Counted from the stretch's first letter, positions 38,075-58,471 are shown. The stretch is DNA of 64,000 bases from a virus (IMGVR_UViG_3300044638_001843:5067-69066), one strand, 5' to 3'. Notes: a model not told the origin generated them from the letters alone. A program made the numbers and translations.

Positions 38075-38841
38075 AAGAATTTATTGCTTCAGTGTTGTTT
38101 ATTTCTATTATTTCACTTGTTAATTATTTATTCCCTTCAGAAAATCTTTGCTTCTTGCCTATTGCCCTTGGAGCTATGTCATTAGCTCAGGGTGTTATGG
38201 GTGGTATGGCAGCAAGTGCAAAAGCAGAAAGAGAAAATGAAGAAGCCCTAGCTAAATGGGGTGCAGCAACTGTACAGAAAGCTTGGAATAATTCTAAAGC
38301 TCAGCTAGAAGCCGTACAGCAGTTTGAAAACCAACTTAAAAAGAATAGACAAATATCCGAAACAGCTTTTGCTTATAACTATGATGCAATGGGTGCTGCA
38401 AAAGTTGCTAATACAATGAAGCAAGAACAAACATATAATCTTGCAGCCGCTCAAAGAGCCGCTTTAACTTCTTCTGTTGGTGCTAGAGGTTTAGCTGCTA
38501 AATCAGGATCTACTACAGCTATGTTAATGGCTCAAGCCAAGTCTTTGATGGAAGAAAATGGTAGACAAGAAATGGAATTTGCCCAGCAAGTTAAGAATAT
38601 CAATACCCAAACCAAGAATATGTTGAACAATCGAACAGAGAATGTATTTATTGCTGACTTCCAGGGTTATGATGCAGCTCCACAGCTACAGGATACTGGT
38701 TCTCCATTAGTTGCTGGCATTATGTCTGGTGTTTCTGGAGCATTTGGTGGTATGTTAACTGGTGCAAACCTTTCTAATGCTATGGGTAGTGGTGGTATAG
38801 GTGGATTGTTTGGTATGAGTGGTGGTATTTTAGGAACATAA
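38062..38841 (+). CDS. Internal virion protein (gp14-like)
   Basis: Ala/Gln-rich helical protein with Gly-rich hydrophobic termini; precedes large internal proteins; start uncertain. Confidence 0.65.
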   Translation: MGMVKEFIASVLFISIISLVNYLFPSENLCFLPIALGAMSLAQGVMGGMAASAKAERENEEALAKWGAATVQKAWNNSKAQLEAVQQFENQLKKNRQISETAFAYNYDAMGAAKVANTMKQEQTYNLAAAQRAALTSSVGARGLAAKSGSTTAMLMAQAKSLMEENGRQEMEFAQQVKNINTQTKNMLNNRTENVFIADFQGYDAAPQLQDTGSPLVAGIMSGVSGAFGGMLTGANLSNAMGSGGIGGLFGMSGGILGT

Positions 38842-38856
38842 ACCTGGAGGTTAATA

Positions 38857-43215: not shown

Positions 43216-45968
43216 ACCAGTACAACTTATTAGGTGAGTCCTTTAATCCTAAAGATTTTTCTTCTTTACTTATACCAGTAGTTAAGGATGAAGACAATGA
43301 ATTAGTAAGAGCAGATATGAAAGCATACAACGAATACTCTAATGATATTCAGTTGTACGATTATATTAACTCTTATATAAAAGAGTCTTACATTAAACCA
43401 GTAGATGAAAGTGCAGAAGAAGAAAAGAAGAAGCAAGCAGCTAAAGAGTGGCAATCTTCTTTAGGTAGAGATCCTAGTTCTACAGATCAACTTACAGATG
43501 AAGCTACAGTTAGAAGCAGAGAATTAAATAACATAGGTCCACTTGTATTTAGAGACAACGGTACTGGTAAATTATTATTCGGTCAGCCAGCAAGAGATGA
43601 ACTACAGTGGACGGTATCACAGGGTAGGGATAATGTAGAAGGTATCTTTGGGTTTGAGAACACAGCCCTTGGTCAGGTTGCTTTGCGAATGATGGGTTCT
43701 GAGTTTAATACAGATTCTTTCTATGAAGAATTAAACAAGCTTAACATGTCATTAGATCCAGAAAAAAGAAAGCAAACATTAGAAAGATTAAAGGGAATGG
43801 CAGGGTGGGCTGAGTATGGTGCTCTTGCTAACTGGGTTCAGTTTCTTCCTGGCGTAGATCCAGAGGATCGGTTTAATGCATCGGAAGAAGTATTAAATGT
43901 ATTTGGGTATAAAGGATTTAATGCATTTGGAAGAAACTATTATTCGTCTGATCCATTTGATTTAGCCGCTAACCTTCCATCTAATCCTAACTGGAACTAT
44001 AACAAAGCATGGGAAGCTTTTACTACAACAAACCCAGGCGCAGCAGCCTGGTTTGAAACAAATGGATTTAATGTTCAATCTAGATTAAAGAATACTAGAC
44101 ATGAATTAGATTTCTTTTATGAACTAAATGAATTTATTGATACAAATGCTTTCCAACGTATTATGTCATCAGATGTAGAACAAATGAGTTCTACTGGATA
44201 TGCTTGGAAGACAACAGTATTACCCCTAATTAGAGATTCGTTTGCTTCAGTAGATGCTCCTCTAGATATTGCAGTAACTGTTGGCCTTGGTACTTTAACT
44301 GCTGGTACTAGTACGGCTGCTTTGGTTGGAGCAAGAACAGCATTAATGGCTGGTAAAATTGGATCCACAAGTTTAAAAACATTGAATGCAGTCCAGCGAT
44401 TTAGGAAGGGTGCTGAAATTGTTACTTCTTGGTTACCTCATAATATAGCGGGTAGGTTTGCTAAAAACGCTACATCAATAACTGGTAAAACTGCTAGCTA
44501 TGTCGGAACCAGTGTTGGTAATGGTATTATTACTGGTGCTTGGTATAATATAAATAACCAGTTAAATAATATGGATAATGATGATACATATCGCTGGAGT
44601 ACAGAAAACCTAGCTCACGATATTGCATTAGAAATAGTTGGTGAACTTGGATTGGGTGGTGCAGCCACTATGGCACAGGCTGGTGTCTTTAAGCTAGGTG
44701 GTTTAATAGACAAAGGCACTGGATCTTATATTGGTAAAGCAGCCAAGAAGCAATTTGAAAAGCTTCCAACAGAACTAAAAGAAGTACTAAAAGCTTCTGC
44801 ATCTTTAGGTAGAGTTGGTAACATGGGCGATATGAATAACTATGAATTACAATTATATACTGATTCAGTTGTTATGATGTATGCTATGCGTACTGCTGGT
44901 GTTATTGACCCAAAAAATCCAACCCTAAACTTTAGAACAGCAGCTGCTTGGGGTGTAGCTACTAGTAGACTAAGTGCAGAAAAAGCCAACACCACCTTGA
45001 AAACAGCCAAAGAAGAGTTTGCTAGAAAGAAAAAAGAACTGCAAGATAGTGGGTCTACTGAAGTATTAACAGATGAAGATCAAGATATGTATGTATCTAA
45101 TATGTTATTATCTGCTATGCTTAGTGATTCTAGAGTTAATCCAGATACACAGGAAAGAATCTTTAATCTCTGGAACAGCATTGAACGTGAGCAATTTAAT
45201 CGTGAGTTTAGAAGTACTCCAGAAATTGAAACCAAACAAAAAGAAATATCAGACTTAGAAGATCAAAAACTAGATCTTGTAGAACAACTAGCCAAAAGAT
45301 CAAAAAAGATTTCTCAAGTAGAAAAAGATATTCTTCAAGTAGAAATAGATGATAGGACTGCTAAGATTGCTATTAAAACTTCAGAACTAGAAACATTACA
45401 GAGTTCAGTTAAGACAGTAGAAAACATGTCAGCAGAAGAGTTAGCTACAAAGCTTTACGAATGGCGTAAAGGTAAAAGAGAAAGAGTTAAAACTTTATTG
45501 GGTTTAATCAATCCATCAGCAACTGTAGCTGCAACAACTGAACTACTATCTCCCGAAGAAATGCAACAAGTTGCTACTGACTTAGGTGCTTCAGCTCCAG
45601 AAGTAATACAAGCAATGGCAGAATCTGAAGTAGAGTCCGGCCTTCCCCGTGATCTTGGTGTGGCCACAGCTGGGGCTTTAAGCGTTGCTGCGGCTTCTGT
45701 TAGCCAACCAGCAGCACCAGCAATGGAAGCCGCTCCCGTGGCTGAAGTAGTTCCAGAAGTTGAAGCTGCCCCCGTAACAGAAGCAGCTCCAATAACAGAA
45801 GAAGCTGCTGAAATTGTAACAGCTGAACCTGCTGTAGCACCTTCAACCGAGGTTATAGAAGCTACCCCAGAAGCCGTACTTACTGAGATTATTGGTAGAC
45901 TAAAGAGTATTGATAGAGTATATCTATTCAATAATATATTACAAAAATACAAAGACGTATGTAAATAA
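43212..45968 (+). CDS. Internal virion protein with hydrophobic Gly/Ala segments, coiled coil and EAAP-rich tail
   Basis: 918 aa; IAVTVGLGTLTAGTSTAALVG segment; C-terminal EAAPV-type repeats. Confidence 0.65.
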   Translation: MNQYNLLGESFNPKDFSSLLIPVVKDEDNELVRADMKAYNEYSNDIQLYDYINSYIKESYIKPVDESAEEEKKKQAAKEWQSSLGRDPSSTDQLTDEATVRSRELNNIGPLVFRDNGTGKLLFGQPARDELQWTVSQGRDNVEGIFGFENTALGQVALRMMGSEFNTDSFYEELNKLNMSLDPEKRKQTLERLKGMAGWAEYGALANWVQFLPGVDPEDRFNASEEVLNVFGYKGFNAFGRNYYSSDPFDLAANLPSNPNWNYNKAWEAFTTTNPGAAAWFETNGFNVQSRLKNTRHELDFFYELNEFIDTNAFQRIMSSDVEQMSSTGYAWKTTVLPLIRDSFASVDAPLDIAVTVGLGTLTAGTSTAALVGARTALMAGKIGSTSLKTLNAVQRFRKGAEIVTSWLPHNIAGRFAKNATSITGKTASYVGTSVGNGIITGAWYNINNQLNNMDNDDTYRWSTENLAHDIALEIVGELGLGGAATMAQAGVFKLGGLIDKGTGSYIGKAAKKQFEKLPTELKEVLKASASLGRVGNMGDMNNYELQLYTDSVVMMYAMRTAGVIDPKNPTLNFRTAAAWGVATSRLSAEKANTTLKTAKEEFARKKKELQDSGSTEVLTDEDQDMYVSNMLLSAMLSDSRVNPDTQERIFNLWNSIEREQFNREFRSTPEIETKQKEISDLEDQKLDLVEQLAKRSKKISQVEKDILQVEIDDRTAKIAIKTSELETLQSSVKTVENMSAEELATKLYEWRKGKRERVKTLLGLINPSATVAATTELLSPEEMQQVATDLGASAPEVIQAMAESEVESGLPRDLGVATAGALSVAAASVSQPAAPAMEAAPVAEVVPEVEAAPVTEAAPITEEAAEIVTAEPAVAPSTEVIEATPEAVLTEIIGRLKSIDRVYLFNNILQKYKDVCK

Positions 45969-45979: not shown

Positions 45980-48900
45980 ATGGGCAAATGCAGCGAAGAG
46001 GTTTTAAACAAGATACGAGAAGAACTAAAGTCAAGTGGTGCAGAACCTGAAACAATTAATACTGTTGTTTCTTTATTTGAAAAGTCTGTTGAAACCGATG
46101 CATCTGCCGACTTGGTATCAAAAACCCTCACTAATTCTTTATTTACAACTTCAGATATTGAGAAGCTTAATAAACTAATTTCAAAGTTTAGAAGAGCTAA
46201 GGGTGATATAACTAAAGTTACTAATGACGATCTGTCTGAATTTACTTTCTTATGGTCTAAGTGGCAAGCTTACATGGAAGGTAAAGTACTTATTGCCGAG
46301 GGATTCAAAACAAAGGAAACTCTAGAACTAAAGAAAAAACTAAGAAAGCTAGAAAGTAAGTTCCTTAGTGAAGGTAAAATTAAAGAAGCAAGAACACTTA
46401 ATAGATTAATTAGAAAAATAGAAGCAACCGAAAAGCAGAATAGAAATGCTGGTAGATTTATTAGGAACATAGAGTTTGAAGGTAGACTAGAAAAAACTAA
46501 AGCTTTACTTAATGCTGTTAATGCGTCTTATGAATTTGAGGCTTCAAACAATGAGACAATTAAAAAACTAAACAATACTAGATTTGCTTTAGTTGGTGAG
46601 CTTCAAAGAGAAACAGACCCAGAAAAGAAAAAAGAAATTCAAAAAAAGATTGATGAGAATGTCAAAGAAACTACCACAAAAACAAATGAAATCTTATTAA
46701 GTAAGGCATTTAGAAAGCAACAGAAAGCAGACTCAACTGGTCAAATATCTCTATATGAAGCAGTTAAAGAACTTAGTTCTGAGATTGATAAGAACTCATC
46801 TACATACCGCCTTGCTCTAAATGAACTGATTGATTCTCGTAATACCCTAGAACATGATAAGCAATTGTTTGAATTAGCCAAACAGGGTATTCAGGTGCTT
46901 AATACAAGTAAGGCTTTGTTGGATGCTATTAGAAAAGAAAAGGGCGGCAAAGTTACTGTAGCAGAACTAAAAGCAGTAATCGGAGATTTGGGTGTTTCCA
47001 TTGATCAATTAATTATTGATACCCACAATAAAGTTAATCCAAAAGAAAAAGCAAAGTCTTTAAAGGGAAGTACTGAACTAGATAACAATACACTATCTTC
47101 TATCTTTAATACATTAGCTAATCTAGCAATAGATCAGGCTTTTTCAAATGGCATTGCTTTAGGTTTTGAGTTTTCACCAGAAGATCAAATGTTAGCAGAT
47201 AATCTAAAAGCAGCTAGTAATAACATGGATATTGAAAACGAAGACCAGGTAAATAACGATACTGTTATGCCAAAGGCTAGAACAGCCAGCAAAGCTAAGG
47301 AAGAAACCCTTAGTACTAGAGAACAAAAAATTAAAGAGTTTAAAGAAGGCACTGACTTTAAGAAGCTTTATGTAATGTTAAAGCAAGCCTTAGAGCGTGT
47401 AGAAACACTGAGAAAACTACCACAGTTCTCAGAGCATATATCAAGAGATATGGTTTTAGCAGCCCTAGGACCACAGTTACACCTACTAAATCCAGACATT
47501 TATTTTAGTAGTGCTGTTGTAACTGCAACATCTGTAGCACGACTAACAGCTCCGGCTCTATCTAGCTTGCCTGTACCGCCAGCATTAGAAAAAGCTTTTG
47601 CTAATTTAGGTATGGATCCAAGAGCAATTAAGGGTTTACCTGAAGTAGCAAACCCAGATGAATACGCAAGAAACTGGGATAGAGTTATTTCATTTGATAT
47701 TGAAACAAAGGGTGATGAGATCTTTATGATTTCTATTAGACACTCAGCAACAGAAGAAAGACTTGATCCTTCTATTGAACAGCTTGTTTCAAATCCAGCC
47801 AAAGGTTCTATTGGTAACTTTACTGCTTATTCAAAAGAAGATCTACTGCGATTCTTACGATCTTTAGAATTAATGCAAAATATGGGATGGAAGGTTGCTG
47901 GATTTAATAATGTTGGATTTGATTTAGCTTCTATAGCTAAATCTATTGGTACAGAAGAAGCATCAAATCTAGCCGCTCGGGTTGCTTTAAGATCATATGA
48001 TATGTACGCTTGGATTAAGATGCAATATGGAGCTACTGTTAATTTAGACAACCTTGCAACAGCAACACTTGGTCGAGGAAAGATTAAAGGCGTAACTGGC
48101 ACAAGTGTAGTAGATCTTTTACTTGCAGCAAAAACAGAAGAAGAAACTTCAAAGGCACTAGAGTATTCTAGAAACGACTCTGATTTAGTATTTGAGATTA
48201 TTGAAAACCTAAGATCAAACCCATCACGAAACCTTACTGTTAATGTAAACAATGTAGATAAGAGTACTGTAAATTTAAGTTTAAGTAATCCACTTCAAAC
48301 ATGGCAACTAGCTATTTTTCACAGTAATACAAATAGTAACTTTAATGGATTCTTTTTAGAATACAATGCAGCAGGAGTACAACCAGCAATAAATAACTTT
48401 GTTGGTGAATCTAGTAATGCTGAAAGAACATCTAGACTGCTATTTAATACAGAAGCAGTTAGAGATCAGTTGCTATTGCATATGTCTTTATCTTTAAGAG
48501 CAGATCCAGATACAGCTGTAGTTGGAGAAACTTTAATTAAAGAAGCCGAAAGACTTACTAAAAAAGAACAAGAAGTTCTTGTTACTCAGATGAAGTTAAT
48601 GAGAACACATAGGCAAGCTGGTATTGAAGCAAAGAAAGCTTTACTTGGTTCTGATGGAGAACCAAAGTTTATTCTTTCAATCATTGAAGGTGAACCAAAA
48701 TATATTGAAGCAACTACCAGTACAACAGCTGAGTCTCAGTATGAAGCAGCAGTAATTGAAGCATTTAATCAGTTTTACTTAGATATGGCAGGGGATAGAG
48801 TACCAGCCGATCAGATAGTTTCTCGGATGAATGAAAAGATTGTTGAGTATGGATTTAGAGAAAAGACTGGATCAGAAACCCAAGCAGACTACATTAAAGC

Positions 48901-51900
48901 TTTTATTAACGAAGTAATCTTGCCATCAGTTAAAGCAAAAGCTATAACAGACTTTGGTAATGGTAATACTGATTATGCTCCTGCTTGGAATGTTGGATAT
49001 GCTATAGCTCAGATTGCAATGGGTAGACGAGATGGTATTATGGATTCTAGATTTATTGAAGAGCAAGCATTTGTTACTCCACTATCTACAATGAATGACC
49101 TGGAAAACAATGCAAAGAATCTATCTGAGTCTATAAAAGTTAGACAACCACATAGAAAAAATGTATCTATGTTTGCCCCAATATCCCTTAAGCAATATGA
49201 AGAAGTATACAATGACTGGGCTTTACGGCAAAGAATAAACCATATTCTAAACGGTGATAGATACAAAGGATTGTCAGAAGAAGAACTACGAAAGAAACTA
49301 GCCGACATTCGTGGGGCTGAGTATATGCGTAGAGTTTCTGTATTAGCTAAGTCAACAACAATAATTCCCGATATTACCCCCACGGTAAATAACAGACAGT
49401 TATTTAATGAGCTTCCAACAATTGAAGATACACTAGATAGAACTCTAGAAACCTTACTAGACTTACCAGCAATTGGTGTTGCTGTAGTACATGACTCTGT
49501 ATTTTTAAGAACAAAAGTAGTTGTAGATAATGATGGTAAGAGTTTAAAATTCTCCAGACTAGAAGCATCACCTGGTGCTTGGTCTGCACGATCAATTATC
49601 AACGGTCAGCTTGTAGCCCAGTTAGGTTGGTATCAAACATATGGTATTACTGATGGTGCTATTAAAACATCGCTTGAAGAAACAGCTAAGGGTATTCAAG
49701 CTGGTAAACTGCAATTAAAGAATATAGATTATTTTGACTTTGACTTTAATGGTGTTCACCACATGTTAATGTTAATGTTGGCTTATAATATTCCAAACGA
49801 CGTAGGTACTAGAGGTGTAGCAAACCTTATAAAAAATCTAAATCTTTCTGAATGGTGGTCAACTGTAGATGCCAACAAGGATGACTTTTATACTCAAGTA
49901 TCTCTTCAAGTCCAGAAGAATATTGCAGAGCAGTATGTTAAACTATCTGAAAGAAAACAAACAGCACCGCTAACTAAAGATGAACAAGCTAAGTTTGATT
50001 CATTAGAAAAGTGGAATGCTATTTTAAACAGCATGGACGAAACAGGATCCAAGAGAACTTTTAGAGATTTCTTTAAGGCTGCTGTATTACCTCGTTTGTA
50101 TCAGGGCGGTATTCCTAGTATTTCACAAGCTCTATTTGAAAAAACTCAAGATCCAGAGTTTAAAGAAACATTCCCATCTATTGTTATTAACAATGCTGAT
50201 ATTGGTTTTTTGTTAAAGGATGCTGAGTTTAGCGGCGTTATTGGATTAATTAAGTTAATAGACGAAACAATAAATATTTCTGTCGATGGTAGAACTAAAC
50301 TAAAACAACAACTAGATGAGTGGAACCAAAAACTTTTCTACAAAGATGGTGTACAAAGACATCATGCAGTTCTTAAGGAAATGGGAAAGTCAACCGATTT
50401 TGGTCGCGGTATCATTGATGATACAACACTAACTAATCTTATCAATCTTCGTATTGATGCGGCTGCAAGAATGTTGGTAAAACCTAGTGATATTATGCAG
50501 TTTGGATCTTTAGAGTCAGCTATTAATAATAAGAAACAACGTCTAGCTAAACTGTGGGCTGACCGAATTAACGCGGGTCGAGAGTATGTAAGAACTAAGG
50601 GTGGTACTCTTACAACCCGTGGAGAATATATTAAGCTAGCTGAGATTATGGGTAGAGATCCCCAAGCTTGGAAAGACTTACCGTTACTGGCTGCTATAAA
50701 CACTGCTAATAGAACACCACTTAAGATTAGAGAAGAAGCTATTAGAGAAGCCACAGAAGAGTTTGGTGTTAATGTAAATGACTATCTTGGTAATTCTGGT
50801 AACTATCTTTTCTTCCAGAGTTTAGCCAGAGACTTGGCTGGTGGTCGTATGTACACAACACCATCCGGTATTTCATACCAGGGTCCTTCTTATTCTCAAG
50901 TCGCTACTCCAGCTCCTTTTGATCCAGCCGATGTAGACACTACAGCTTTATGGGAAATTGACGAGTTTTCTTTTGCTAGACTAGCAAGAGAAAATCCAGA
51001 AGAAGCCCGTAGATACATTACTCAATTAGTCCTACAGCAATATGAATTACGGTTGGCTACTGAGTATATGGCTAATGACTATAACGATAAAACTCTAGAG
51101 ACACCCGAAAGATTCCTAGAAGATTGGTCGCGCATTAGTAAAAAGGAAAGAGAATTCTATGCCAGACGGCGTAGTATAGAAACCCTAAGAACAGCTCAGG
51201 CAGAGGCTCAGATTGAATCCGTTGTTACACCCGGTGGTGCAAGACCTAACGCCAAGAACTGGATTAAAGAAGCTCGTAAGCGCGGCTTGCTATTAGAGCA
51301 GGGATTAAGATATCTTGCTTCTCCATCCCGAGTTATTGGGGATACCAGTAAAGCATTTGAAGAGTCTAATCAAAAAATGGGTATATTTGCATTTAGACCC
51401 AAGACTGCCGATATTGATATTACAGATCTACCTATTTACGCTTTAGCAGAATTAGCTATTGAACGCCGTATTGATAAAGAAAATGAAAACTGGGTAAGAG
51501 CAAGTAAGAAGAATAAAGCACCAAGTTCTGTAACAGATATTATTCCAGAACAGGCTATAGGGTACACTCATACAGTAAACCCAGAATCTTTACCATATGT
51601 TCCAAGAGAACTTATGTCACTGGGTTTACTTACTAATCTAACAGATGTATCAACTAAACTTGCCGTTGAGCAAGCTAGAATTCAAAGCAGACTTTATAGG
51701 TTTGCAAAGCAAAATGGATTAATGCATCTCTTACCGCGCGGTAGAGAAAACTGGGCTGCTGTTCATTTCATTAGAATGGCTCATGTCCGAGGTGGTTACC
51801 CACTACTAAGAAAACTTGGTAAGGTTTATAATGCAGATGAAAATACTTTAGTATCTGAATATAACTTAGGTGTATCAAAGTTCTTAACATCCATGTTTGA

Positions 51901-54900
51901 TATTATTGAGTATCAACACAATACAATGGATAAGGATGTAACACAGTTAGACTTTAATTACTTTGGTGGGTTTAATCCAAAGATGTTTAAGGGTATGCGT
52001 GGAAGTCCAACATACTACAATCTTCTTACAATGTTGTCTGATGCATCAGAACAACTAGGAAGTCTTAAGTATGGTCTTACTGTTTCATCAAGAACTAGAG
52101 TAGCAGGACCCGACTCGCAACCTATTGACGAAAACACAAGAACACTACCGGTAACCGTACAAGCTATGGATGCTGTTAACCTTGTGTTTATTCTTTACAA
52201 CTTAACAAAAGTAAAACAAGTAGCTACTGAATTAGTTAAAGCTAGAAATATTGCTGGTGTTGAATTTGATCCTGCTGGACAAGTAATACCTGAATCAATC
52301 CCAGCAAACGCAGCAGTTACATTGCTACCAGAAATTCTAAGTAGACCAGAGTTTACAGAAGCTGACATAAGATCCGTAGGGCTATATGTACTTTATAATG
52401 AGTATCAAAATACTGCTGAGCTTGTTGTTGATAAACCCACGGCTAATACAATGGATATTCAAACAGCCATTGGTCCAGTCCCACAAGTAAATGTTAATGA
52501 TAGTAAAACAAAGTATGCGTTCACACCAGAAATGTTAAACTCATTGTTACTTGCTTTAAGAAACTCTGTTGTACTAAACCAGGCTGAACTTGCTTATGCT
52601 ACTAATAAATCAATTGGTGAAAAGAAGTCAAACCTAGAGCGTGGCAATCTACAAAGAACATTAGAATATTACAATGGGGCTAGAGAACTAAAAGCCGATG
52701 AAGCTACAGTTTTCTCGGCTCTCCATGCTGGACTATCTCCACTGTATACTTTAGATGGTGGTATGTATGATGCCCGATATAATGTTCAGTATGAAATTTT
52801 AGATTCTATTAGATACTTAGCCAAAGAAAACTTTAATTTAATTTCTACTAAGTATTTAGATAGTCGATCTACACCGTTTACTGTAAAAGCATATGAACTA
52901 GCTTTGCTTATGCCACTTCAAAGAGCTATAGCAATTGCTGAAAATAACAATCTTAAGTCTGCTTTAAATACTATTAACAGTACTTTAAATAATAATCCAC
53001 AAGAGATTAGACAGCTATTACCAATTATTTCTTTGGCTATATCAAAGCCAACAATGGAACTAAATGCTATTAAAGCTCTTGTTGATTATACATTCAGTAG
53101 AGAAGGTATTTCAAAAGCCAAAGTTGATGCCCTAACTAGTGATATTCAGATTCTTTTAAATGTAGTTAGAAGCATTACAGATCCACAGTCTAATGAGTTC
53201 TATACACCAGTTAGAGCTTTCTTACAGCGGCTAGATGTACCAACTGATAAACTAAATGAACTAGATGCTACTGTTCAGTTTATTGCTTATCAGGAAGAAA
53301 GAGGTAAGAAACTAAACGCAGAACAACAGAATAAAGTTAGACTAGCCGTTTCTCACTCTATTAAAAACTTACAAGAAGATTCTCAATTAAGTCTTTCATT
53401 CTATGGAACTGGACCAAAAGAATCAGCTAATAAGTTTGGGAATGAAACAATATTCTTGTCTACATTTGTAAATTCAGGTGAACAACTAAATAATCAAATT
53501 AAGTCTTTAGGATTGGATGCACTAACAGAACAGATGTATAGAGCTATGATTGGATTTATTTTACATAAGCATCCAGAACTTGAAGGTCACTTGACTATTA
53601 GCATAGATGATGTTGAAGGAAATAGATTAGCTAAAATCCGTAAGGTTAATGATGTATTTAATATTGTCTTTGCTAAGTCTCCAAACACAATTAAAGCAGC
53701 AGTTGCTGGTAAAACAACTGAACAAGCTATTGAAGTAATAGCACATGAGCTATCCCATATTGCTTTAAACTATTCTAAGATTAGAGATAGAATTGGTTAT
53801 GAAGAAGCAATTGAAAGCTTAATGACAGACACCGGGCAAGAAGCAATAGAAAAAATGGTTACTAATGCTTTTGCTGGTGGGGTGCTAACTAGAAATGAAA
53901 TCACTAAACTAGTTTCTTACTATCAACAAAACTTGGAAGAAGCTTTGGTTATGTGGGGAAGCCAAATGCTTATTACAAGAGCAATGGGTAAAGATCGTGT
54001 TGAGCTAAAGGCTATAGAGGAAGAAAACAATATAGCTAGTAAGGTTAATTCTTGGTGGAAGAGAACCTTTAAATCTATTGAATACTTTGTAAATAATCTA
54101 GTTACATTCTTAGATGAAATGACTGGTAGTAGATTTGTTGGTGTATCAGACAAAGTAAACAGAGTCTTTAATGGATTCTTTGATGCTACTTCAGATCTTA
54201 GAATGGAAGACAAAGCCGTATACGATGATGTACTTGAAGAAAGTTTTATTATCTCAAATGCGGATGTATATTATAATCCTGGTTCAACATCTACTGAACG
54301 TACTGCTTATCTTGAAGAGCAAGAAAGAAATCAGAATCAGTACAGAAGATTAACCCAAGAGCTTAGTACACTGGATCCAAACTCAGCAGAATATGCAAGA
54401 GTTAAAAGAGAACTAGACTCTATTAGAGATAAGTGGCAAAATAATGTAGACCACTTAGGTATCTCTGATGAACTATACTATGATACATTAACTAGACTAC
54501 GCAACAGAAATGATGTTGTAGGTCGTGAATTTGATTATGCAGAAACAACAGAAGAAGAGATTGTACTAGCAGATCACATTATTAGAAAGCTGTCAGAGGT
54601 TCGTGGCAAGCGTGTCGATAGCCCAGGTACAGCTGCGTATCTAGCTAGACAAATGATGAATCTATTCTCAGGCACTGTGTCTATGCAAGACGATGGACAT
54701 GCAAGAAATAGATTAATCCAAACACTACAGAAGATTTCTACTTCTGTTTATCTTGTAACTGGTAATCAATCTGGCCAAACCTATAACTCTGCTTTTGGTA
54801 TTATTGTATCACTAGCGCACTTAATTGATGCCGAAGCACAAACAGTAGATTCATACTTTGAAGGTAACGGCGGATTAGATGGTATTAAACAAAACCAATA

Positions 54901-57900
54901 CCAAGTAAATCTATTGGTTAATCAAGTATCTTCTGTTTATAACCAAATTGTTTCAGAGTTTTCTTCAGCAATCCCAGTACCAGGCGCAACTAATAGATCT
55001 GGAGATATTATCCTAGAGTCATTTAGTTACCTAGCCAGTGGTAAGATTGATCCTTCATTTAATGAAAAGGAACAAGCTGCTATCCGTAGACTTGGAGATA
55101 CATATCGTAAGTCTTCAGAACTATTACATGGAATAATTACAGATGCTAATCTAAAAGATAGATCAAGACCATTCCATGATAGCTACCTTGCATTCAAGTT
55201 AGATATTGATCAGTTTAGAGAAGAAAAGAATAAAGCTGGTTATCAAACAAGAAGAACGCAGTTTATTCAATCTGTATCTTCTTTAATCAAAGCAAAACAA
55301 CTTTCACAGTTACAAGATCTTGATAGAGTACATCCGGTTACATTTATGTTGACTTCCGGGTTACCAACACTTAAGACATCTAACTCATCAGACATGTCTT
55401 CAGAACAAGAGTTTATTAGCTTTATTGAAAGAAACGCAAGTGGATCTACAAATCCAAATTCAGTAGAGGCTATTATATTTAACTCTATTCTTTCTTATGC
55501 TGCTCAGGTTAAAGAAGGATCTGTTGATTTAGCAACTAAAAAGGATCTCATTAGATCAGGTGCAACTGTTGGAAACTCGGTTGCATTGAAAGATTTAAAG
55601 AAAGGCTACAAGGCTTTACTAGAAGCAAGCACTAGTAGAACAGCTACTGTAACTGGATTGCTTACAGCACATACATCAGGTATTACCCCAGAACAAGTAA
55701 AGATAATCCAGAATGCAATAAAGAATACCATTACTTCTGATATTGGCAATCCACCCAATATGAAAGCAAAGCTTCAAGCTATGCGTTCTGAGAGATTCCC
55801 AATTAAGATCAAAGAAGAAAGAAATATCTTTAGTGCATCTACAAATACAATTCCAGAACTACTGGCAATAGACTTCTTAAATACTATTGGTTCTTCTGCT
55901 GCTATTACTTATAAGGATGACATCAACCTAACAATAGATGATATCTTTGGTGATAACTTTACTGAAGTACTTGGCGTAGAGGAAATGAGATCTATTCGTA
56001 GTGGCTTCTCCAGAGACATAAGATCTATTATTAAATCAATTGGATCTGGTTTAGGTCAGCAAGCTGTATCAAGTTCATTGATTTACAAGATGACTGGGGT
56101 ACAAGGGTATGATGTTCTTAAACTAATTAGGACTCTAAAGGCATATGTCGATGGAGCCAATAGACCAACTGGATCTCATATATCACAGGGTCAGTTTGAA
56201 AGAACCGAACAAGGTGTAAGAGCTAAACCCCTATCACAAGCAGAAGTCAAGTTACTTAGTGATGCCTTAACAGTATTGGAGCACAAGTATCAGTATATGT
56301 GGAACATGCGTTCTGCTGTATCTGGTGATGCCATTGGTAAGAATGCAATTAAGTTTACAACACAAGCTGCCCACCTAATTTGGGGTGGTAACCAGATTGC
56401 CGCTGGTATTCTTGTAGACTCTTCAGCAGCAGCCGTTGGTGCTATGATGCTAGGCGGTGCTGGTGGTGTACTTGGTTTCTATGGCAGATACATTGGAGAT
56501 GTCCTTAGATTAAGCTTTGGTGCATTTAGTGATGGATGGAAACAAACCCAGGTTCGTGGTGACTTTGCCGACTTTGCAGAAATACTTTGGGATACTAATA
56601 GTAACTTTGTTGAGTCATGGGAAAAGTTATATGGTGAAGTAGACTTTACTAGAAAAACCGGAAGACTGGCTAGTAGATTCTTAAGCTTTAACCAAGCACT
56701 AAATATGTCAACATCTATCTCTGCAAGAACAGCTTTGGCTAAAACTGCATTAGTACAACTCAATAGACAACTAAATACTAACAACCTAGAAGAAGTAAGA
56801 CGTATGCTTATTGATGGTGAATTGGAATCTGGTAACTATAGAGGATATGTAACTCTGATGAAAAAGCTAAAGAACAACGGCTTTAGAAAACTATCTTCAC
56901 CTGAAACAATTCTACGAATGAAAGCTGCTGGTATGTTTGAGGTTGGGGTTATCGAAAGCCTTAAGTTCTTAAAGCAATCAGGACCAATTAGTATTTCTCA
57001 GTATATGGACAAAATCCTAGATCTTGATAAAGATTTTAGCGTTAATGTAGATGGTGTTACCGTAAATAAACAAATGCTAATACAAGCTGTAGGAGCTATT
57101 GAAAAGTTCCAAGACTTGGCAGTTAAACAATCATTAATATCTTCTTCAGCTTTTGATGGTATAACAGATGATTCTCCACTAAGCAAGTTCTTAAGCTTGT
57201 ATAGATCATATTCAATTCTATTTGCTGGTCAGATGTTACTACGCAACAGTGCCAGAATGTCTACATCAAAGATGGCTGGACTCATGTTGGTATATACCAT
57301 TACCGATATTATGTATCAGACTATGCTTGCAGCAGCCAGCGGGTTCCTTGCTGGGGATGAGATTGAAAGATTACTAAGGGGTGAACCATCTGAAAAGGTA
57401 ATTAAACTTATTGCTAAAGCAGCAGTAAGAAACCCCATGTTTACTTTACAGGGCAACTTCTTGTTGGATACTACCTTGTTCTTGGCAGATACAGTTGCTG
57501 GTAACAAGGGATTAGAACCAGAGATTGCACCGCTAGGTGTTACTGCTATGGTACGATTACTAAAGAACCTAGCAACCAATACCAATACCTTTATCAATGC
57601 ACAGTCAGATGAAGAAAGAATTAAGTCAGCTTACAATGGTGGATTATATTTACTACCAATACTAAATCAAGCTTGGTTTAAAACTTTAATTAATCAGGGC
57701 TTAGCTACAGAAGCAAAGAAACAAACAATGGGTTCCTTTGATTCTGGAAGACGCAATAGTGAAGGTAGACCCATGAATACAGCATTTGCTACAGCTTATG
57801 CTGAATACGAAAACATGCAACTACCTACGCCAAACAATATAGCACAGGCTATACTTAAGTCATTGTATCAAACTGAAATGAATAACAAACTTCAGCAATA

Positions 57901-58087
57901 CATGCATCAGTTTAAAAAGAAACAAATGCCAAACCTAGGTCTAACAGCTCCAGAAACTCCAGTACCAGAGAAGCCAGTAGAAACAACTTCTACCAGCGAA
58001 GTCATGGTTGGACCTAAGCCAAGCACTGGTTCATCTCTACAAAAGGAAGCAACAACACCAATTAAAGCTCCAGACTCACTGAAGTAA
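45980..58087 (+). CDS. Giant virion protein, putative virion RNA polymerase with DEDDy exonuclease domain and HEXXH motif
   Basis: 4035 aa, AAGGAG RBS. FDIET/GFNNVGFD/YSRND; VVHDS; FDFDFNGVHH...DVGTRGVANL...DDFY; RDFFKAAVLPRLYQG; RDLAGGRMY...SYQG; HELSH. Confidence 0.75.
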   Translation: MGKCSEEVLNKIREELKSSGAEPETINTVVSLFEKSVETDASADLVSKTLTNSLFTTSDIEKLNKLISKFRRAKGDITKVTNDDLSEFTFLWSKWQAYMEGKVLIAEGFKTKETLELKKKLRKLESKFLSEGKIKEARTLNRLIRKIEATEKQNRNAGRFIRNIEFEGRLEKTKALLNAVNASYEFEASNNETIKKLNNTRFALVGELQRETDPEKKKEIQKKIDENVKETTTKTNEILLSKAFRKQQKADSTGQISLYEAVKELSSEIDKNSSTYRLALNELIDSRNTLEHDKQLFELAKQGIQVLNTSKALLDAIRKEKGGKVTVAELKAVIGDLGVSIDQLIIDTHNKVNPKEKAKSLKGSTELDNNTLSSIFNTLANLAIDQAFSNGIALGFEFSPEDQMLADNLKAASNNMDIENEDQVNNDTVMPKARTASKAKEETLSTREQKIKEFKEGTDFKKLYVMLKQALERVETLRKLPQFSEHISRDMVLAALGPQLHLLNPDIYFSSAVVTATSVARLTAPALSSLPVPPALEKAFANLGMDPRAIKGLPEVANPDEYARNWDRVISFDIETKGDEIFMISIRHSATEERLDPSIEQLVSNPAKGSIGNFTAYSKEDLLRFLRSLELMQNMGWKVAGFNNVGFDLASIAKSIGTEEASNLAARVALRSYDMYAWIKMQYGATVNLDNLATATLGRGKIKGVTGTSVVDLLLAAKTEEETSKALEYSRNDSDLVFEIIENLRSNPSRNLTVNVNNVDKSTVNLSLSNPLQTWQLAIFHSNTNSNFNGFFLEYNAAGVQPAINNFVGESSNAERTSRLLFNTEAVRDQLLLHMSLSLRADPDTAVVGETLIKEAERLTKKEQEVLVTQMKLMRTHRQAGIEAKKALLGSDGEPKFILSIIEGEPKYIEATTSTTAESQYEAAVIEAFNQFYLDMAGDRVPADQIVSRMNEKIVEYGFREKTGSETQADYIKAFINEVILPSVKAKAITDFGNGNTDYAPAWNVGYAIAQIAMGRRDGIMDSRFIEEQAFVTPLSTMNDLENNAKNLSESIKVRQPHRKNVSMFAPISLKQYEEVYNDWALRQRINHILNGDRYKGLSEEELRKKLADIRGAEYMRRVSVLAKSTTIIPDITPTVNNRQLFNELPTIEDTLDRTLETLLDLPAIGVAVVHDSVFLRTKVVVDNDGKSLKFSRLEASPGAWSARSIINGQLVAQLGWYQTYGITDGAIKTSLEETAKGIQAGKLQLKNIDYFDFDFNGVHHMLMLMLAYNIPNDVGTRGVANLIKNLNLSEWWSTVDANKDDFYTQVSLQVQKNIAEQYVKLSERKQTAPLTKDEQAKFDSLEKWNAILNSMDETGSKRTFRDFFKAAVLPRLYQGGIPSISQALFEKTQDPEFKETFPSIVINNADIGFLLKDAEFSGVIGLIKLIDETINISVDGRTKLKQQLDEWNQKLFYKDGVQRHHAVLKEMGKSTDFGRGIIDDTTLTNLINLRIDAAARMLVKPSDIMQFGSLESAINNKKQRLAKLWADRINAGREYVRTKGGTLTTRGEYIKLAEIMGRDPQAWKDLPLLAAINTANRTPLKIREEAIREATEEFGVNVNDYLGNSGNYLFFQSLARDLAGGRMYTTPSGISYQGPSYSQVATPAPFDPADVDTTALWEIDEFSFARLARENPEEARRYITQLVLQQYELRLATEYMANDYNDKTLETPERFLEDWSRISKKEREFYARRRSIETLRTAQAEAQIESVVTPGGARPNAKNWIKEARKRGLLLEQGLRYLASPSRVIGDTSKAFEESNQKMGIFAFRPKTADIDITDLPIYALAELAIERRIDKENENWVRASKKNKAPSSVTDIIPEQAIGYTHTVNPESLPYVPRELMSLGLLTNLTDVSTKLAVEQARIQSRLYRFAKQNGLMHLLPRGRENWAAVHFIRMAHVRGGYPLLRKLGKVYNADENTLVSEYNLGVSKFLTSMFDIIEYQHNTMDKDVTQLDFNYFGGFNPKMFKGMRGSPTYYNLLTMLSDASEQLGSLKYGLTVSSRTRVAGPDSQPIDENTRTLPVTVQAMDAVNLVFILYNLTKVKQVATELVKARNIAGVEFDPAGQVIPESIPANAAVTLLPEILSRPEFTEADIRSVGLYVLYNEYQNTAELVVDKPTANTMDIQTAIGPVPQVNVNDSKTKYAFTPEMLNSLLLALRNSVVLNQAELAYATNKSIGEKKSNLERGNLQRTLEYYNGARELKADEATVFSALHAGLSPLYTLDGGMYDARYNVQYEILDSIRYLAKENFNLISTKYLDSRSTPFTVKAYELALLMPLQRAIAIAENNNLKSALNTINSTLNNNPQEIRQLLPIISLAISKPTMELNAIKALVDYTFSREGISKAKVDALTSDIQILLNVVRSITDPQSNEFYTPVRAFLQRLDVPTDKLNELDATVQFIAYQEERGKKLNAEQQNKVRLAVSHSIKNLQEDSQLSLSFYGTGPKESANKFGNETIFLSTFVNSGEQLNNQIKSLGLDALTEQMYRAMIGFILHKHPELEGHLTISIDDVEGNRLAKIRKVNDVFNIVFAKSPNTIKAAVAGKTTEQAIEVIAHELSHIALNYSKIRDRIGYEEAIESLMTDTGQEAIEKMVTNAFAGGVLTRNEITKLVSYYQQNLEEALVMWGSQMLITRAMGKDRVELKAIEEENNIASKVNSWWKRTFKSIEYFVNNLVTFLDEMTGSRFVGVSDKVNRVFNGFFDATSDLRMEDKAVYDDVLEESFIISNADVYYNPGSTSTERTAYLEEQERNQNQYRRLTQELSTLDPNSAEYARVKRELDSIRDKWQNNVDHLGISDELYYDTLTRLRNRNDVVGREFDYAETTEEEIVLADHIIRKLSEVRGKRVDSPGTAAYLARQMMNLFSGTVSMQDDGHARNRLIQTLQKISTSVYLVTGNQSGQTYNSAFGIIVSLAHLIDAEAQTVDSYFEGNGGLDGIKQNQYQVNLLVNQVSSVYNQIVSEFSSAIPVPGATNRSGDIILESFSYLASGKIDPSFNEKEQAAIRRLGDTYRKSSELLHGIITDANLKDRSRPFHDSYLAFKLDIDQFREEKNKAGYQTRRTQFIQSVSSLIKAKQLSQLQDLDRVHPVTFMLTSGLPTLKTSNSSDMSSEQEFISFIERNASGSTNPNSVEAIIFNSILSYAAQVKEGSVDLATKKDLIRSGATVGNSVALKDLKKGYKALLEASTSRTATVTGLLTAHTSGITPEQVKIIQNAIKNTITSDIGNPPNMKAKLQAMRSERFPIKIKEERNIFSASTNTIPELLAIDFLNTIGSSAAITYKDDINLTIDDIFGDNFTEVLGVEEMRSIRSGFSRDIRSIIKSIGSGLGQQAVSSSLIYKMTGVQGYDVLKLIRTLKAYVDGANRPTGSHISQGQFERTEQGVRAKPLSQAEVKLLSDALTVLEHKYQYMWNMRSAVSGDAIGKNAIKFTTQAAHLIWGGNQIAAGILVDSSAAAVGAMMLGGAGGVLGFYGRYIGDVLRLSFGAFSDGWKQTQVRGDFADFAEILWDTNSNFVESWEKLYGEVDFTRKTGRLASRFLSFNQALNMSTSISARTALAKTALVQLNRQLNTNNLEEVRRMLIDGELESGNYRGYVTLMKKLKNNGFRKLSSPETILRMKAAGMFEVGVIESLKFLKQSGPISISQYMDKILDLDKDFSVNVDGVTVNKQMLIQAVGAIEKFQDLAVKQSLISSSAFDGITDDSPLSKFLSLYRSYSILFAGQMLLRNSARMSTSKMAGLMLVYTITDIMYQTMLAAASGFLAGDEIERLLRGEPSEKVIKLIAKAAVRNPMFTLQGNFLLDTTLFLADTVAGNKGLEPEIAPLGVTAMVRLLKNLATNTNTFINAQSDEERIKSAYNGGLYLLPILNQAWFKTLINQGLATEAKKQTMGSFDSGRRNSEGRPMNTAFATAYAEYENMQLPTPNNIAQAILKSLYQTEMNNKLQQYMHQFKKKQMPNLGLTAPETPVPEKPVETTSTSEVMVGPKPSTGSSLQKEATTPIKAPDSLK

Positions 58088-58170
58088 ATCGACTTAGGGG
58101 TCAGAAATTTCTGAGGGGTTAGGTAAGGAATTAGAGGGTGGATATCCCCCTCTATCCCCCCCAATCAAAC

Positions 58171-58210
58171 AAAGCAACCAGAGAACTAATAATTCTCTGG
58201 TTGTTTTTTT
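58171..58210 (+). terminator. Intrinsic terminator after the giant gene
   Basis: AAAGCAACCAGAGAA-loop-TTCTCTGGTTGTTTTTTT. Confidence 0.8.
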
Positions 58211-58286
58211 CCCAGGTAGATTCCCTACCTATCCCTATCACTGGGGTTCAGTGAATCTAGGTCCTATAGACCAGAAAGATTAGGGG

Positions 58287-58430: not shown

Positions 58431-58471
58431 GAAATTCCCCCAGGTTAATCCCTGGGGGATTTCTTTATGGG
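58431..58471 (+). promoter_or_regulatory. Hairpin + TTATGGG element, copy 1
   Basis: GAAATTCCCCCAGG-TTAATC-CCTGGGGGATTTC-TTTATGGG. Confidence 0.7.

What the first reader, a model, noticed from the sequence alone, without database searches (positions are those of the whole stretch)
49484..52183. Virion RNAP domain with apparently shuffled catalytic motif order
Seen in the 4035-aa protein: motif C-like IGVAVVHDSVF (49484, aa about 1169); motif A-like DYFDFDFNGVHH...DVGTRGVANL...DDFY (49727; compare T7 FDGSCSGIQH...DEVGGRAVNL...QDIY); motif B RDFFKAAVLPRLYQG (50063); the DxxGR element LFFQSLARDLAGGRMY...SYQG (50828); and LPVTVQAMDAVNL (52145, resembling SPNFIHALDAAHM of the main RNAP). Established order in T7 and N4 is DxxGR, A, B, PNFxH helix, C. 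The order here (C, A, B, DxxGR, helix) is not a simple circular permutation. Inference: a topologically rewired palm. An alternative motif C candidate (GVEFD, about 52257) follows the helix.
Basis: partly seen in the sequence, partly recalled or inferred. Interest (0 to 1): 0.88.

Follow-up and report, generated by a model that had tools for sequence, protein, structure and literature searches.

The report
Rearranged RNA polymerase domain in giant phage protein
A 4035-residue, probably virion-delivered protein of an uncultured T7-like phage carries a T7-type RNA polymerase domain whose conserved catalytic blocks lie in a different order along the chain than in every described relative.

Summary
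The window is 64 kb of a 69,066-nt T7-like podovirus record that also has a canonical T7-type RNAP.

The giant protein belongs to a rare family of ~4000-aa proteins, 19 full-length members, the distant ones 18-21% identical. Only 50 of 4035 columns are invariant. They include H1171-D1172, D1253/G1258/H1260, D1302, K1366, Y1374 and R1623.

Profile comparison with T7-like RNAPs maps four blocks above all 198 decoys:
- aa 1122-1176 = T7 755-816 (motif C)
- aa 1252-1317 = T7 536-584 (motif A)
- aa 1567-1599 = T7 315-342
- aa 1622-1658 = T7 424-458 (DxxGR)

So the order C, A-B, DxxGR is real in sequence and is not a circular permutation.

Not shown: that the blocks meet in one active site (no coordinates available), activity, and virion packaging. 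New variant of a known kind. The scan held no look-alike on other DNA.

The parts
45980..58087 (+). Giant ORF, 4035 aa (P0001), member of a family of ~4000-aa proteins
   Evidence: Homologues: 5 proteins; 33 at E<=1e-3 among 1.84 billion representatives; 16 of them 3992-4228 aa.
47657..48229 (+). PolA-type DEDDy 3'-5' exonuclease-like domain (aa ~560-750)
   Evidence: hhalign aa 617-657 = T7 gp5 34-74, score 30.2; aa 570-631 = gp5 2-48, score 18.3; aa 724-746 = gp5 165-187, score 16.2. Pfam PF01612 E 0.0075, 16.5 bits, below the 23.6 cut-off. D573/E575/D733 kept in 15 of 19, D648 in 16 of 19.
49343..49507 (+). Block Z (aa 1122-1176): equivalent of T7 RNAP 755-816, ending in the hydrophobic strand plus H1171-D1172 (motif C)
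   Evidence: hhalign score 25.1-26.7 against a decoy maximum of 17.7. H and D kept in 19 of 19. In model M1, HD sits between strands 1168-1170 and 1173-1175. It also aligns to motif C of T7 DNA polymerase, score 21.4.
49505..49528 (+). Strand directly after HD (aa 1176-1183)
   Evidence: In the truncated model M2 this and the motif A strand are the only two strands of 3 or more residues, so they most probably pair with each other.
49709..50251 (+). Block Y (aa 1244-1424): motif A strand and helix (D1253, G1258, H1260), D1302/Y1304, and the fingers with the motif B helix (R1362, K1366, Y1374, G1376-G1377)
50678..50776 (+). Block X-a (aa 1567-1599): equivalent of T7 315-342 (the AINxxQNTxWxIN element at the end of the N-terminal domain)
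   Evidence: hhalign score 22.8-23.2. N1574 kept in 15 of 19.
50822..50953 (+). Block X-b (aa 1615-1658): DxxGR-like hairpin, G1622-R1623 ... Q1634-G1635, equivalent of T7 424-458
   Evidence: hhalign score 22.8-25.0 to T7 and 23.2 to the N4 TxxGR at N4 1420-1435. R1623 kept in 19 of 19; D1618 in only 9 of 19.
52145..52183 (+).
   Evidence: hhalign score 14.2, below the decoys, and not recovered. Q2061 kept in 16 of 19, D2064 as D or E in 18 of 19.
52256..52297 (+). GVEFD...VIPES turn (aa 2093-2106) with conserved D2097; an alternative acidic residue of unknown role
   Evidence: D..G found in 18 of 19. The four preceding residues are polar (mean hydropathy -0.44, against +1.89 before HD).
53744..53941 (+). 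Zincin-like HExxH (H2589, E2590, H2593) with E2654
   Evidence: E2590, H2593 and E2654 kept in 19 of 19; H2589 in 16 of 19. Weak Pfam M48/M78 hits, E 0.02, below cut-off.
56396..56452 (+). The single strongly hydrophobic segment (aa 3473-3491)
   Evidence: Kyte-Doolittle window of 19 residues above 1.6.
38062..45968 (+). Three preceding ORFs (259, 1452, 918 aa) with no family match; candidate internal virion proteins
   Evidence: No Pfam or PHROG hit. 2 Cys in 2629 aa. The same order of large ORFs is seen in L002.
2..2326 (+). The phage's canonical T7-type RNAP (812 aa in the full record)
   Evidence: PF00940 E 2e-83.

Best explanation
- Y: motif A and the fingers with motif B (D1253, K1366, Y1374).
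- X: the end-of-N-domain element plus the DxxGR hairpin (R1623).

This is a non-circular permutation.

Inferred mechanism: the three blocks still fold into one right-hand polymerase. The HD hairpin and the motif A strand carry the two metal-binding Asp. The O-helix Lys/Tyr bind the incoming NTP. R1623 contacts the primer end.

Also inferred: the protein is packaged with the three preceding cysteine-poor proteins as an internal/ejection protein and enters the cell with the DNA. There it acts like N4 vRNAP, transcribing the first (GC-richer) genes before the phage's own canonical T7-type RNAP takes over.

Shown: conservation, block order, and the fingers fold. Inferred: spatial convergence of the blocks, RNA rather than DNA synthesis, packaging, and timing.
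For: 1) Family and conservation. There are 19 full-length members of 3992-4228 aa; 14 of them are only 17.7-21.4% identical to the query. Only 50 of 4035 columns are invariant. Nine of them are the residues that match T7 H811, D812, D537, G542, D569, K631, Y639, R425, plus H1260 next to T7 H545.

2) Whole-protein hhalign scan. 99 windows were compared with a 118-sequence T7-like RNAP profile. The six best windows (22.5-25.1) all fall on the four blocks and on the right T7 motifs. The 198 reversed decoys have maximum 17.7, mean 13.1, sd 2.1. The result repeats with a 2-sequence profile of T7 plus the phage's own RNAP: 23.3, 22.2, 20.9, 18.5.

3) Structure, model M1 (aa 1045-2244, mean pLDDT 62.2). 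The secondary structure fits the motifs: HD lies between two short strands, D1253 ends a strand that is followed by a helix, K1366/Y1374 lie on a helix, and R1623 lies between two strands.

4) Structure search with VIA-align.
- With model M2, T7 scores 8.7 and human mtRNAP 8.1.

5) RNAP rather than DNAP. A matched T7 gp5 + own PolA profile hits only the shared HD motif (21.4) in the polymerase region, not motifs A or B.

6) Truncation test. In M2 (aa 1060-1565) the strand right after HD and the motif A strand are the only two strands of 3 or more residues. The pLDDT of both Asp-bearing turns falls from 73-79 (M1) to 45 once aa 1566-2244 are removed. This fits both turns contacting the removed part.

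7) Virion inference.
- The gene follows TerL and three large unassigned ORFs, and L002 shows the same synteny.
- The protein has 1 Cys in 4035 aa, and the four ORFs together have 3 in 6664 aa, against 108 in 9322 aa in 14 other ORFs.
- 13 of 19 family members have exactly one Cys.
- N4 vRNAP has 0 in 3500 aa, T7 RNAP 12 in 883.

8) Weak lead. In the ESM-feature search, 7 of 9 listed clusters carry PF00940 or N4 vRNAP Pfam families, but the scores are only 0.75-0.80.
Against: - No sequence library recognises the domain: Pfam, PHROGs and PDB by phmmer/hmmsearch.
- Foldseek found nothing at E<=0.001 in PDB (two searches) or in BFVD.
- The hhalign hits are weak in absolute terms: probability 0.3-11%, pairwise E 0.003-0.2.
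- hhalign does not recover motif B. The best hit of window 1325-1404 is T7 23-40 at 11.3.
- The same method applied to N4 vRNAP, a proven RNAP, recovered only motif A, and its decoys reached 23.8. Sensitivity and the null therefore depend on the query profile.
- No structural alignment extends from the fingers into the palm.
- Both models are of middling confidence (pLDDT 62-64, pTM 0.41-0.53).
- In M2 the HD turn is drawn as a low-confidence helix.
- D2097 is also conserved.
- D of 'DxxGR' is kept in only 9 of 19.
- No thumb-sized segment lies between blocks X-a and X-b: 23 aa against 82 in T7.
- Packaging and activity are untested.
Confidence: 0.6

Rival explanations
1. The topology is canonical and the motifs are mis-assigned. 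The true motif C would be the D2097 turn after the helix at aa 2056. VVHDS would be a palm hairpin with another role, and GGR an insertion.
For: D2097 is conserved (D..G in 18 of 19). It lies 33 aa after a Q/D-containing helix that resembles PNFxHxxD by eye. The HD hairpin lies 81 aa before motif A, roughly where the DxxGR hairpin sits in T7.
Against: - Helix 2057-2073 scores 14.2 against T7 780-796, below the decoys.
- The residues before D2097 are polar (-0.44), not a buried strand.
- HD aligns with motif C of both T7 RNAP and T7 DNAP.
- Two colinear hits (T7 315-342 and 424-458) place the genuine DxxGR block after the fingers.
Confidence: 0.08
2. It is a polymerase of the Pol I superfamily, but it makes DNA. 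For example it could fill in or extend the entering genome end together with the fused PolA-type exonuclease. It would not be a transcriptase.
For: A PolA-type 3'-5' exonuclease domain lies upstream (hhalign 30.2 to T7 gp5), as in family A DNA polymerases. Motif C HD is shared by both classes.
Against: - Motifs A and B and the T7 315-342 element match RNAP profiles, not the DNAP profile.
- The residue after HD is S/A/C/G, never the Glu of Pol I 'HDE' (the HDE signature is recalled).
Confidence: 0.1
3. It is a polymerase-derived relic. The blocks survive in an ejection protein as a nucleic-acid clamp or DNA-pulling module without catalysis.
For: - The order is scrambled.
- No palm alignment was obtained.
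- No thumb lies at the T7 position.
- D of DxxGR is variable.
Against: Every residue known to be needed for catalysis in T7 RNAP that could be mapped is kept in 19 of 19 members at 18-21% overall identity. That is hard to explain without catalysis.
Confidence: 0.1
4. The blocks do not fold within one chain. After cleavage, perhaps by the zincin domain, or between copies, the pieces assemble in trans into a split polymerase. Chain order would then be irrelevant.
For: A conserved HExxH...E domain is present. Split T7-like RNAPs exist (N4 RNAPII heterodimer, passages of PMC4496689 and recalled). Truncation lowers the confidence of the active-site turns.
Against: No cleavage sites are known. The linkers are conserved and partly well predicted. 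Nothing tested here speaks directly to this.
Confidence: 0.09
5. The resemblance is chance. This is an ordinary gp16-like internal core protein without a polymerase fold.
For: There are no Pfam, PHROG, PDB-sequence or Foldseek hits.
Against: as set out above.
Confidence: 0.03

Closest known systems
T7-type single-subunit RNA polymerases (phage T7 gene 1, mitochondrial POLRMT/Rpo41; Pfam PF00940)
   Same: - Equivalents of T7 R425, D537, G542, D569, Y571, K631, Y639, H811 and D812 are present.
- The T7 315-342 element is present.
   Different: - The block order is C / A-B / DxxGR instead of DxxGR / A-B / C.
- There is no PF00940 hit.
- There is no thumb-length segment before DxxGR.
- The domain is embedded in a 4035-aa protein with exonuclease and zincin-like domains.
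Phage N4 virion RNA polymerase gp50 (Schitoviridae)
   Same: - A giant protein (3500 against ~4000 aa) with a central single-subunit RNAP domain at a similar position in the chain.
- Almost no cysteine: 0 against 1.
- The GR...Q element aligns, score 23.2.
- The gene lies beside other large virion-protein genes (annotation).
   Different: - N4 has the canonical order TxxGR 1421, A 1556, B 1663-75, C 1948.
- N4's Pfam families PF21769/21894/21624/21867 do not hit this protein.
- The host phage here is T7-like with its own canonical RNAP.
- N4 motif C lacks the His (KIFDG).
Birnavirus / permutotetravirus RdRp with C-A-B palm permutation
   Same: Motif C lies upstream of motif A in a right-hand polymerase that is still active. 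This is recalled knowledge. One search lists reviews of such RdRps by title and start of abstract only.
   Different: Those are RNA-dependent polymerases with only motif C moved. Here the enzyme is of the Pol I/T7 class, and the DxxGR block has also changed sides.
Bordetella phage BPP-1 major capsid protein (non-circularly permuted HK97 fold)
   Same: It is a precedent that a phage protein can keep a fold after a non-circular swap of sequence elements, said to occur rarely in nature (passages of PMC3863775).
   Different: It is an unrelated fold and function, and it is proven by a cryo-EM structure. Here the spatial fold is not yet shown.
T7 gp14-gp15-gp16 internal core / ejection proteins
   Same: A run of large genes in the structural module of a T7-like genome. 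The largest comes last and carries enzymatic domains (gene order; the role of gp16 is recalled).
   Different: The genes lie after the terminase rather than before the tail fibre. There is no sequence or family match. gp16 has no polymerase.
crAss-like phage virion RNAP gp66 (two-barrel, DFDxD)
   Same: A large virion-packaged polymerase-bearing protein (abstract start of 10.1101/2020.03.07.982082). The local string DFDFN looks similar.
   Different: Only the first Asp (D1253) is conserved: 19 of 19, against D1255 in 6 of 19. The fold match is to single-subunit RNAPs, not two-barrel ones.

Membership tests
T7-type single-subunit RNAP (PF00940) | Match to the Pfam RNA_pol model above its cut-off | tested here: not met
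   No PF00940 hit for the whole protein at E<=1, or for aa 1045-1670 and 1671-2244 at E<=10. The phage's other RNAP scores 281 bits.
T7-type single-subunit RNAP (PF00940) | Motif A Asp at the end of a strand, followed by G..H on a helix | tested here: met
   D1253, G1258 and H1260 are kept in 19 of 19. hhalign places them on T7 536-584 with score 24-26. Strand then helix in M1.
T7-type single-subunit RNAP (PF00940) | Motif B R-x3-K-x7-Y-G on the O helix of the fingers | tested here: met
T7-type single-subunit RNAP (PF00940) | Motif C: hydrophobic strand, then His-Asp at a hairpin turn | tested here: met
   H1171-D1172 are kept in 19 of 19. The preceding four residues have mean hydropathy +1.89. 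hhalign places them on T7 808-816. They form a hairpin in M1 but not in truncated M2.
T7-type single-subunit RNAP (PF00940) | T/DxxGR element | tested here: inconclusive
   R1623 is kept in 19 of 19 and G1622 in 15 of 19. The acidic residue is D in 9 and E in 3 of 19, with one extra residue in the spacing. hhalign score 22.8-25.
T7-type single-subunit RNAP (PF00940) | Order DxxGR, A, B, C along the chain | tested here: not met
   The order is C (1171), A (1253), B (1366-74), GR (1623) in all 19 aligned members.
T7-type single-subunit RNAP (PF00940) | The two catalytic Asp converge in one palm site; RNA synthesis | not testable with these tools
   Structure prediction returns no coordinates. 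No alignment reaches the palm.
N4-type virion RNAP (gp50) | Match to the N4 vRNAP Pfam domains (PF21769, PF21894, PF21624, PF21867) | tested here: not met
   These domains are precomputed on 120 of 120 listed N4 relatives. None is hit by P0001 or its parts.
N4-type virion RNAP (gp50) | Giant cysteine-free protein with a central polymerase domain | tested here: met
   4035 aa with 1 Cys, polymerase blocks at aa 1122-1658. N4 has 3500 aa and 0 Cys.
N4-type virion RNAP (gp50) | Packaged in the virion and injected; transcribes early genes from hairpin promoters | not testable with these tools
   There is no isolate. The hairpins at 58178-58820 have T-runs and look like terminators. This was not analysed further.
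Family A DNA polymerase | Polymerase motifs A and B of the Pol I type | tested here: inconclusive
   A 2-sequence DNAP profile hits only HD (21.4) in the polymerase region. The exonuclease part matches (30.2). A 2-sequence profile is of low power.
Two-barrel RNAP (crAss gp66 / YonO type) | Conserved DFDxD metal-binding motif | tested here: not met
   D1253 is kept in 19 of 19, D1255 in only 6 of 19, and position 1257 is never D.

The most novel reading that the evidence does not exclude
This is a natural, active single-subunit RNA polymerase whose palm is built with a second chain topology (motif C block, then A plus fingers, then the DxxGR block), that is, a non-circular permutation of the T7/Pol I design. 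It is carried in the virion of a T7-like phage that also encodes a canonical T7-type RNAP. The phage would then run an N4-style injected-polymerase early programme on a T7 chassis. The fused PolA-type exonuclease and zincin domains might process the entering DNA end or the protein itself.
Probability: 0.45. Interest if true: 0.88.

Novelty: new variant of a known kind. Interest (0 to 1): 0.78.

Why it matters
As far as I recall, every described member of the T7/mitochondrial/N4 single-subunit RNAP class has the same linear order of catalytic motifs. Two full-text searches found no report of a permuted one.

A conserved family with the order C, A-B, DxxGR would show three things:
- The Pol I-type right hand tolerates a non-circular rewiring, so far known for the RdRp palm and for an HK97 capsid fold.
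- A new scaffold would be available for polymerase engineering.
- Motif-order-based detectors miss such enzymes: Pfam, PHROGs and Foldseek all failed here.

Biologically, it suggests that an uncultured lineage of ~69-kb T7-like phages delivers its own polymerase with the genome. The lineage is widespread: 661 relatives of its canonical RNAP were found, from sources that include Tara Oceans. Delivering its own polymerase would make early transcription independent of the host RNAP, as in N4.

Tried and rejected
Searches that gave nothing useful
- Sequence libraries. Pfam on the whole protein gave 2 irrelevant weak rows. Pfam on six parts gave only sub-threshold exonuclease and peptidase rows. 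PHROGs gave 0.
- PDB by sequence. phmmer gave 1 irrelevant row. A 2-sequence profile gave 1 irrelevant row. A 25-sequence profile gave 61 rows, coiled-coil noise.
- hhalign of A3 against the phage's own RNAP as a single sequence found nothing.
- tblastn of aa 1045-2244 against 50,697 phage records gave no match.
- Foldseek gave 0 matches at E<=0.001 for M1 vs PDB, M2 vs PDB and M2 vs BFVD.
- No family A DNA polymerase or two-barrel RNAP appeared in the 50 rows shown. Absence from a list is not exclusion.

Relatives' context
- The viral-contig scan gave 2 loci.
- The metagenome scan gave 1 partial locus.
- P0014 as query gave none.
- The 19-sequence alignment was too divergent to scan with.
- Only L002 gave synteny.

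Controls and unstable hits
- Second-tier hhalign hits are unstable between windows and were dropped: aa 1889-1911 = T7 830-852 at 19.7; aa 995-1030 = T7 654-695 at 19.7; aa 3402-3439 = T7 51-87 at 19.5.
- The N4 positive control (14 sequences, all >=71% identical to N4) recovered 1 of 4 motifs.
- Against N4 as a single sequence, apart from the GR element the scores above 20 were scattered, and the decoys reached 21.4.

Readings rejected or not supported
- The neighbouring 625-aa ORF, read by the first stage as a compact RNAP, gave no RNAP signal in Pfam, PHROGs, PDB sequences or single-sequence hhalign.
- The two-barrel DFDxD reading of DFDFN is rejected.
- A circular-permutation reading is rejected. 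The order Z-Y-X is not a rotation of X-Y-Z.

Not done or limited
- Supplementary files of papers were not opened.
- Papers: PMC13492108, outline and abstract only. PMC4496689, PMC10747016 and PMC3863775, passages found by term only. Others, search listings only.

Full report
WHAT THE WINDOW IS

The window is bases 5067-69066 of a 69,066-nt virus record. Its genes mark a T7-like podovirus:
- a T7-type RNAP (PF00940, E 2e-83; 812 aa in the full record)
- primase-helicase
- family A DNA polymerase
- class II-like RNR
- T7-type portal, scaffold and capsid
- tail tube and nozzle
- T7 tail-fibre N-domain
- T7-type large terminase

After the terminase come ORFs of 259, 1452, 918 and 4035 aa with no Pfam or PHROG match. 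GC content rises from about 0.35-0.40 to 0.45-0.51 beyond the giant gene. The canonical RNAP is at most 28% identical to that of any of 50,697 deposited phage genomes. It has 661 metagenomic relatives, many on 65-71-kb contigs. The lineage is therefore uncultured but widespread.

CHECK OF THE OBSERVATION

The protein has few relatives. Five were found by the word-seeded search. The exhaustive HMMER search of 1.84 billion representatives found 33 at E<=1e-3, and 16 of those are 3992-4228 aa long. I aligned 19 full-length members, leaving out P0002, which is 99% identical to the query. Four are 42-64% identical to the query and fourteen are 17.7-21.4% identical.

Only 50 of 4035 columns are invariant. 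Within aa 1100-1700 these include H1171, D1172, D1253, G1258, H1260, D1302, K1366, Y1374 and R1623, each kept in 19 of 19.

ARE THEY POLYMERASE MOTIFS?

I cut the family alignment into 80-aa windows. Each window was compared by hhalign with a profile of 118 T7-like RNAPs (T7 itself, the phage's own enzyme, and 116 relatives). Reversed profiles and reversed windows served as decoys.

Over the whole protein (99 windows) the 198 decoys reached at most 17.7 (mean 13.1, sd 2.1). The six best real windows scored 22.5-25.1, and all fall on four places:

| Family residues | T7 residues | Equivalences |
|---|---|---|
| aa 1122-1174 | 755-814 | HD on H811-D812 |
| aa 1252-1317 | 536-584 | D1253 on D537, G1258 on G542, D1302 on D569, Y1304 on Y571 |
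| aa 1567-1599 | 315-342 | the AINxxQNTxWxIN element |
| aa 1622-1658 | 424-458 | R1623 on R425, Q1634-G1635 on Q435-G436 |

The T7 numbering was checked. The same four places come back with a profile of only T7 plus the phage's own RNAP and when template and query are cut to the matching parts.

In absolute terms the hits are weak: probability 0.3-11% and pairwise E 0.003-0.2. hhalign does not find motif B. The same procedure on N4 vRNAP, a proven but very divergent RNAP, found only motif A, with decoys up to 23.8. The method is therefore insensitive, and its null depends on the query.

STRUCTURE

Model M1 covers aa 1045-2244 with 25 alignment rows. Its mean pLDDT is 62.2 and pTM 0.53, and the part covering aa 1074-1764 mostly scores 60-90. 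It predicts the secondary structure expected for each motif:
- HD sits between two short strands and is followed by a longer strand.
- D1253 ends a strand that is followed by a helix.
- K1366 and Y1374 lie on one helix.
- R1623 lies between two strands.

Foldseek found nothing.

VIA-align gave clear matches.
- All of these align aa 1297-1424 with T7 564-690. That puts K1366 and Y1374 within two residues of K631 and Y639.

No alignment extends from the fingers into the palm. That is expected from a sequence-order-bound aligner if the palm is wired differently, but equally expected if the palm is badly modelled.

THE ORDER

In all 19 members the blocks are colinear, in this order:
- Y: T7 536-690, motif A, fingers, motif B
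- X: T7 315-342 and 424-458, with DxxGR

T7 and N4 have X-Y-Z; the N4 positions were read from its sequence.

- LPVTVQAMDAVNL (aa 2056) is not supported as the PNFxH helix: score 14.2, below the decoys. The T7 segment before motif C aligns instead to the residues just before HD.
- GVEFD holds a conserved Asp, but the residues before it are polar. HD, in contrast, follows a strongly hydrophobic strand, as motif C should.

DOES IT FOLD INTO ONE SITE?

I could not measure this, because no coordinates are returned. There are two indirect hints.
- In M2, which lacks block X, the only two strands of 3 or more residues are the one just after HD (aa 1176-1183) and the motif A strand (aa 1244-1251). 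These presumably pair, as the second motif C strand and the motif A strand do in canonical palms.
- The confidence of both Asp-bearing turns drops from 73-79 in M1 to 45 in M2. This would follow if both turns touch the removed part.

Both hints are weak.

RNA OR DNA?

Upstream lies a PolA-type DEDDy exonuclease-like domain. hhalign scores 30.2 to T7 gp5 residues 34-74, with colinear weaker hits to the Exo I and Exo III regions. Pfam PF01612 hits it below cut-off.

In the polymerase region the DNA polymerase profile matches only the shared HD motif, whereas the RNAP profile matches four blocks. All strong fold matches are RNAPs. I therefore favour RNA synthesis.

VIRION LOCATION

Virion location is inferred from four observations.
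- Position after the structural genes, behind three large unassigned ORFs. The same order is seen in a 46%-identical relative.
- Size.
- A single hydrophobic segment near the C-terminus.
- A striking lack of cysteine.

On cysteine: the protein has 1 Cys in 4035 aa, and the four ORFs together have 3 in 6664 aa. Fourteen other large ORFs of the window have 108 in 9322 aa. Thirteen of 19 family members have exactly one Cys, always at residue 3-6. N4 vRNAP has none in 3500 aa, whereas T7 RNAP has 12 in 883.

COMPARISON WITH WHAT IS KNOWN

The domain works like a T7-type RNAP, as far as residues and fingers fold show, and sits in a protein built like N4 gp50. It fails membership tests of both families:
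- It does not match PF00940.
- It does not match the four N4 vRNAP Pfam families that mark 120 of 120 listed N4 relatives.
- It lacks the canonical motif order.

Analogous rewirings are known. The C-A-B RdRp of birnaviruses is recalled. The non-circularly permuted HK97 fold of phage BPP-1 is called rare in nature in the passages of PMC3863775.

Two full-text searches for a permuted single-subunit or T7-like RNAP returned nothing relevant. A search for virion RNAPs in T7-like phages found only a speculative assignment in phage StenR_269, based on size and lack of cysteine (passages of PMC10747016). The scan's own index holds no look-alike.

VERDICT

The interpretation of a shuffled motif order is supported at the sequence level. 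The spatial 'rewired palm', activity and packaging remain inferences. It is a new variant of a known kind.

Noticed in passing
window 38062-58087 (four consecutive ORFs): Extreme cysteine depletion: 3 Cys in 6664 aa, against 108 in 9322 aa in 14 other large ORFs. In the giant protein the only Cys is residue 4. An N-terminal Cys at position 3-6 is present in all 19 family members, and 13 of 19 have no other Cys. The C-terminus ends in a conserved TTPIKAP-like proline motif (P4027 and P4031 invariant).
   Followed up: partly
window 47657-48229: A PolA-type DEDDy exonuclease-like domain in the giant protein. hhalign scores 30.2 to T7 DNA polymerase residues 34-74, with colinear weaker hits. Pfam PF01612 is below cut-off. 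The acidic residues are kept in 15-16 of 19 members, not all.
   Followed up: partly
window 53744-53941: Zincin-like HExxH with a downstream Glu. E2590, H2593 and E2654 are kept in 19 of 19. The first His is replaced by Glu in 3 of 19. There are weak sub-threshold Pfam hits to peptidases M48/M78.
   Followed up: partly
window 58178-58210, 58435-58470, 58784-58820: GC-rich hairpins, each followed by a T-run, look like intrinsic terminators. The first has no TTATGGG. The latter two are followed by TTATGGG, the repeated element another first-stage note read as hairpin promoters.
   Followed up: no
window 58914-60791; L002 20879-22753: A 625-aa ORF conserved in position (624 aa in L002). The first stage read it as a compact RNAP. 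It gave no RNAP signal in Pfam, PHROGs, PDB sequences or a single-sequence hhalign. It is Cys-rich (11 Cys).
   Followed up: partly
window 49112-49280 (aa 1045-1100): The most conserved 50-aa stretch of the whole protein (mean column conservation 0.51; P1067 and R1085 invariant). It lies just upstream of the motif C block, is confidently helical in M1, and has no T7 equivalent.
   Followed up: no
window 2-2326 and the whole record: The canonical RNAP is at most 28% identical to any cultured phage RNAP, yet has 661 metagenomic relatives, many on 65-71-kb contigs from freshwater and marine sources. This points to a large uncultured clade of enlarged T7-like phages.
   Followed up: partly
window 56001-64000: GC content rises from 0.35 to 0.45-0.51 at the right end of the record, beyond the giant gene.
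   Followed up: no
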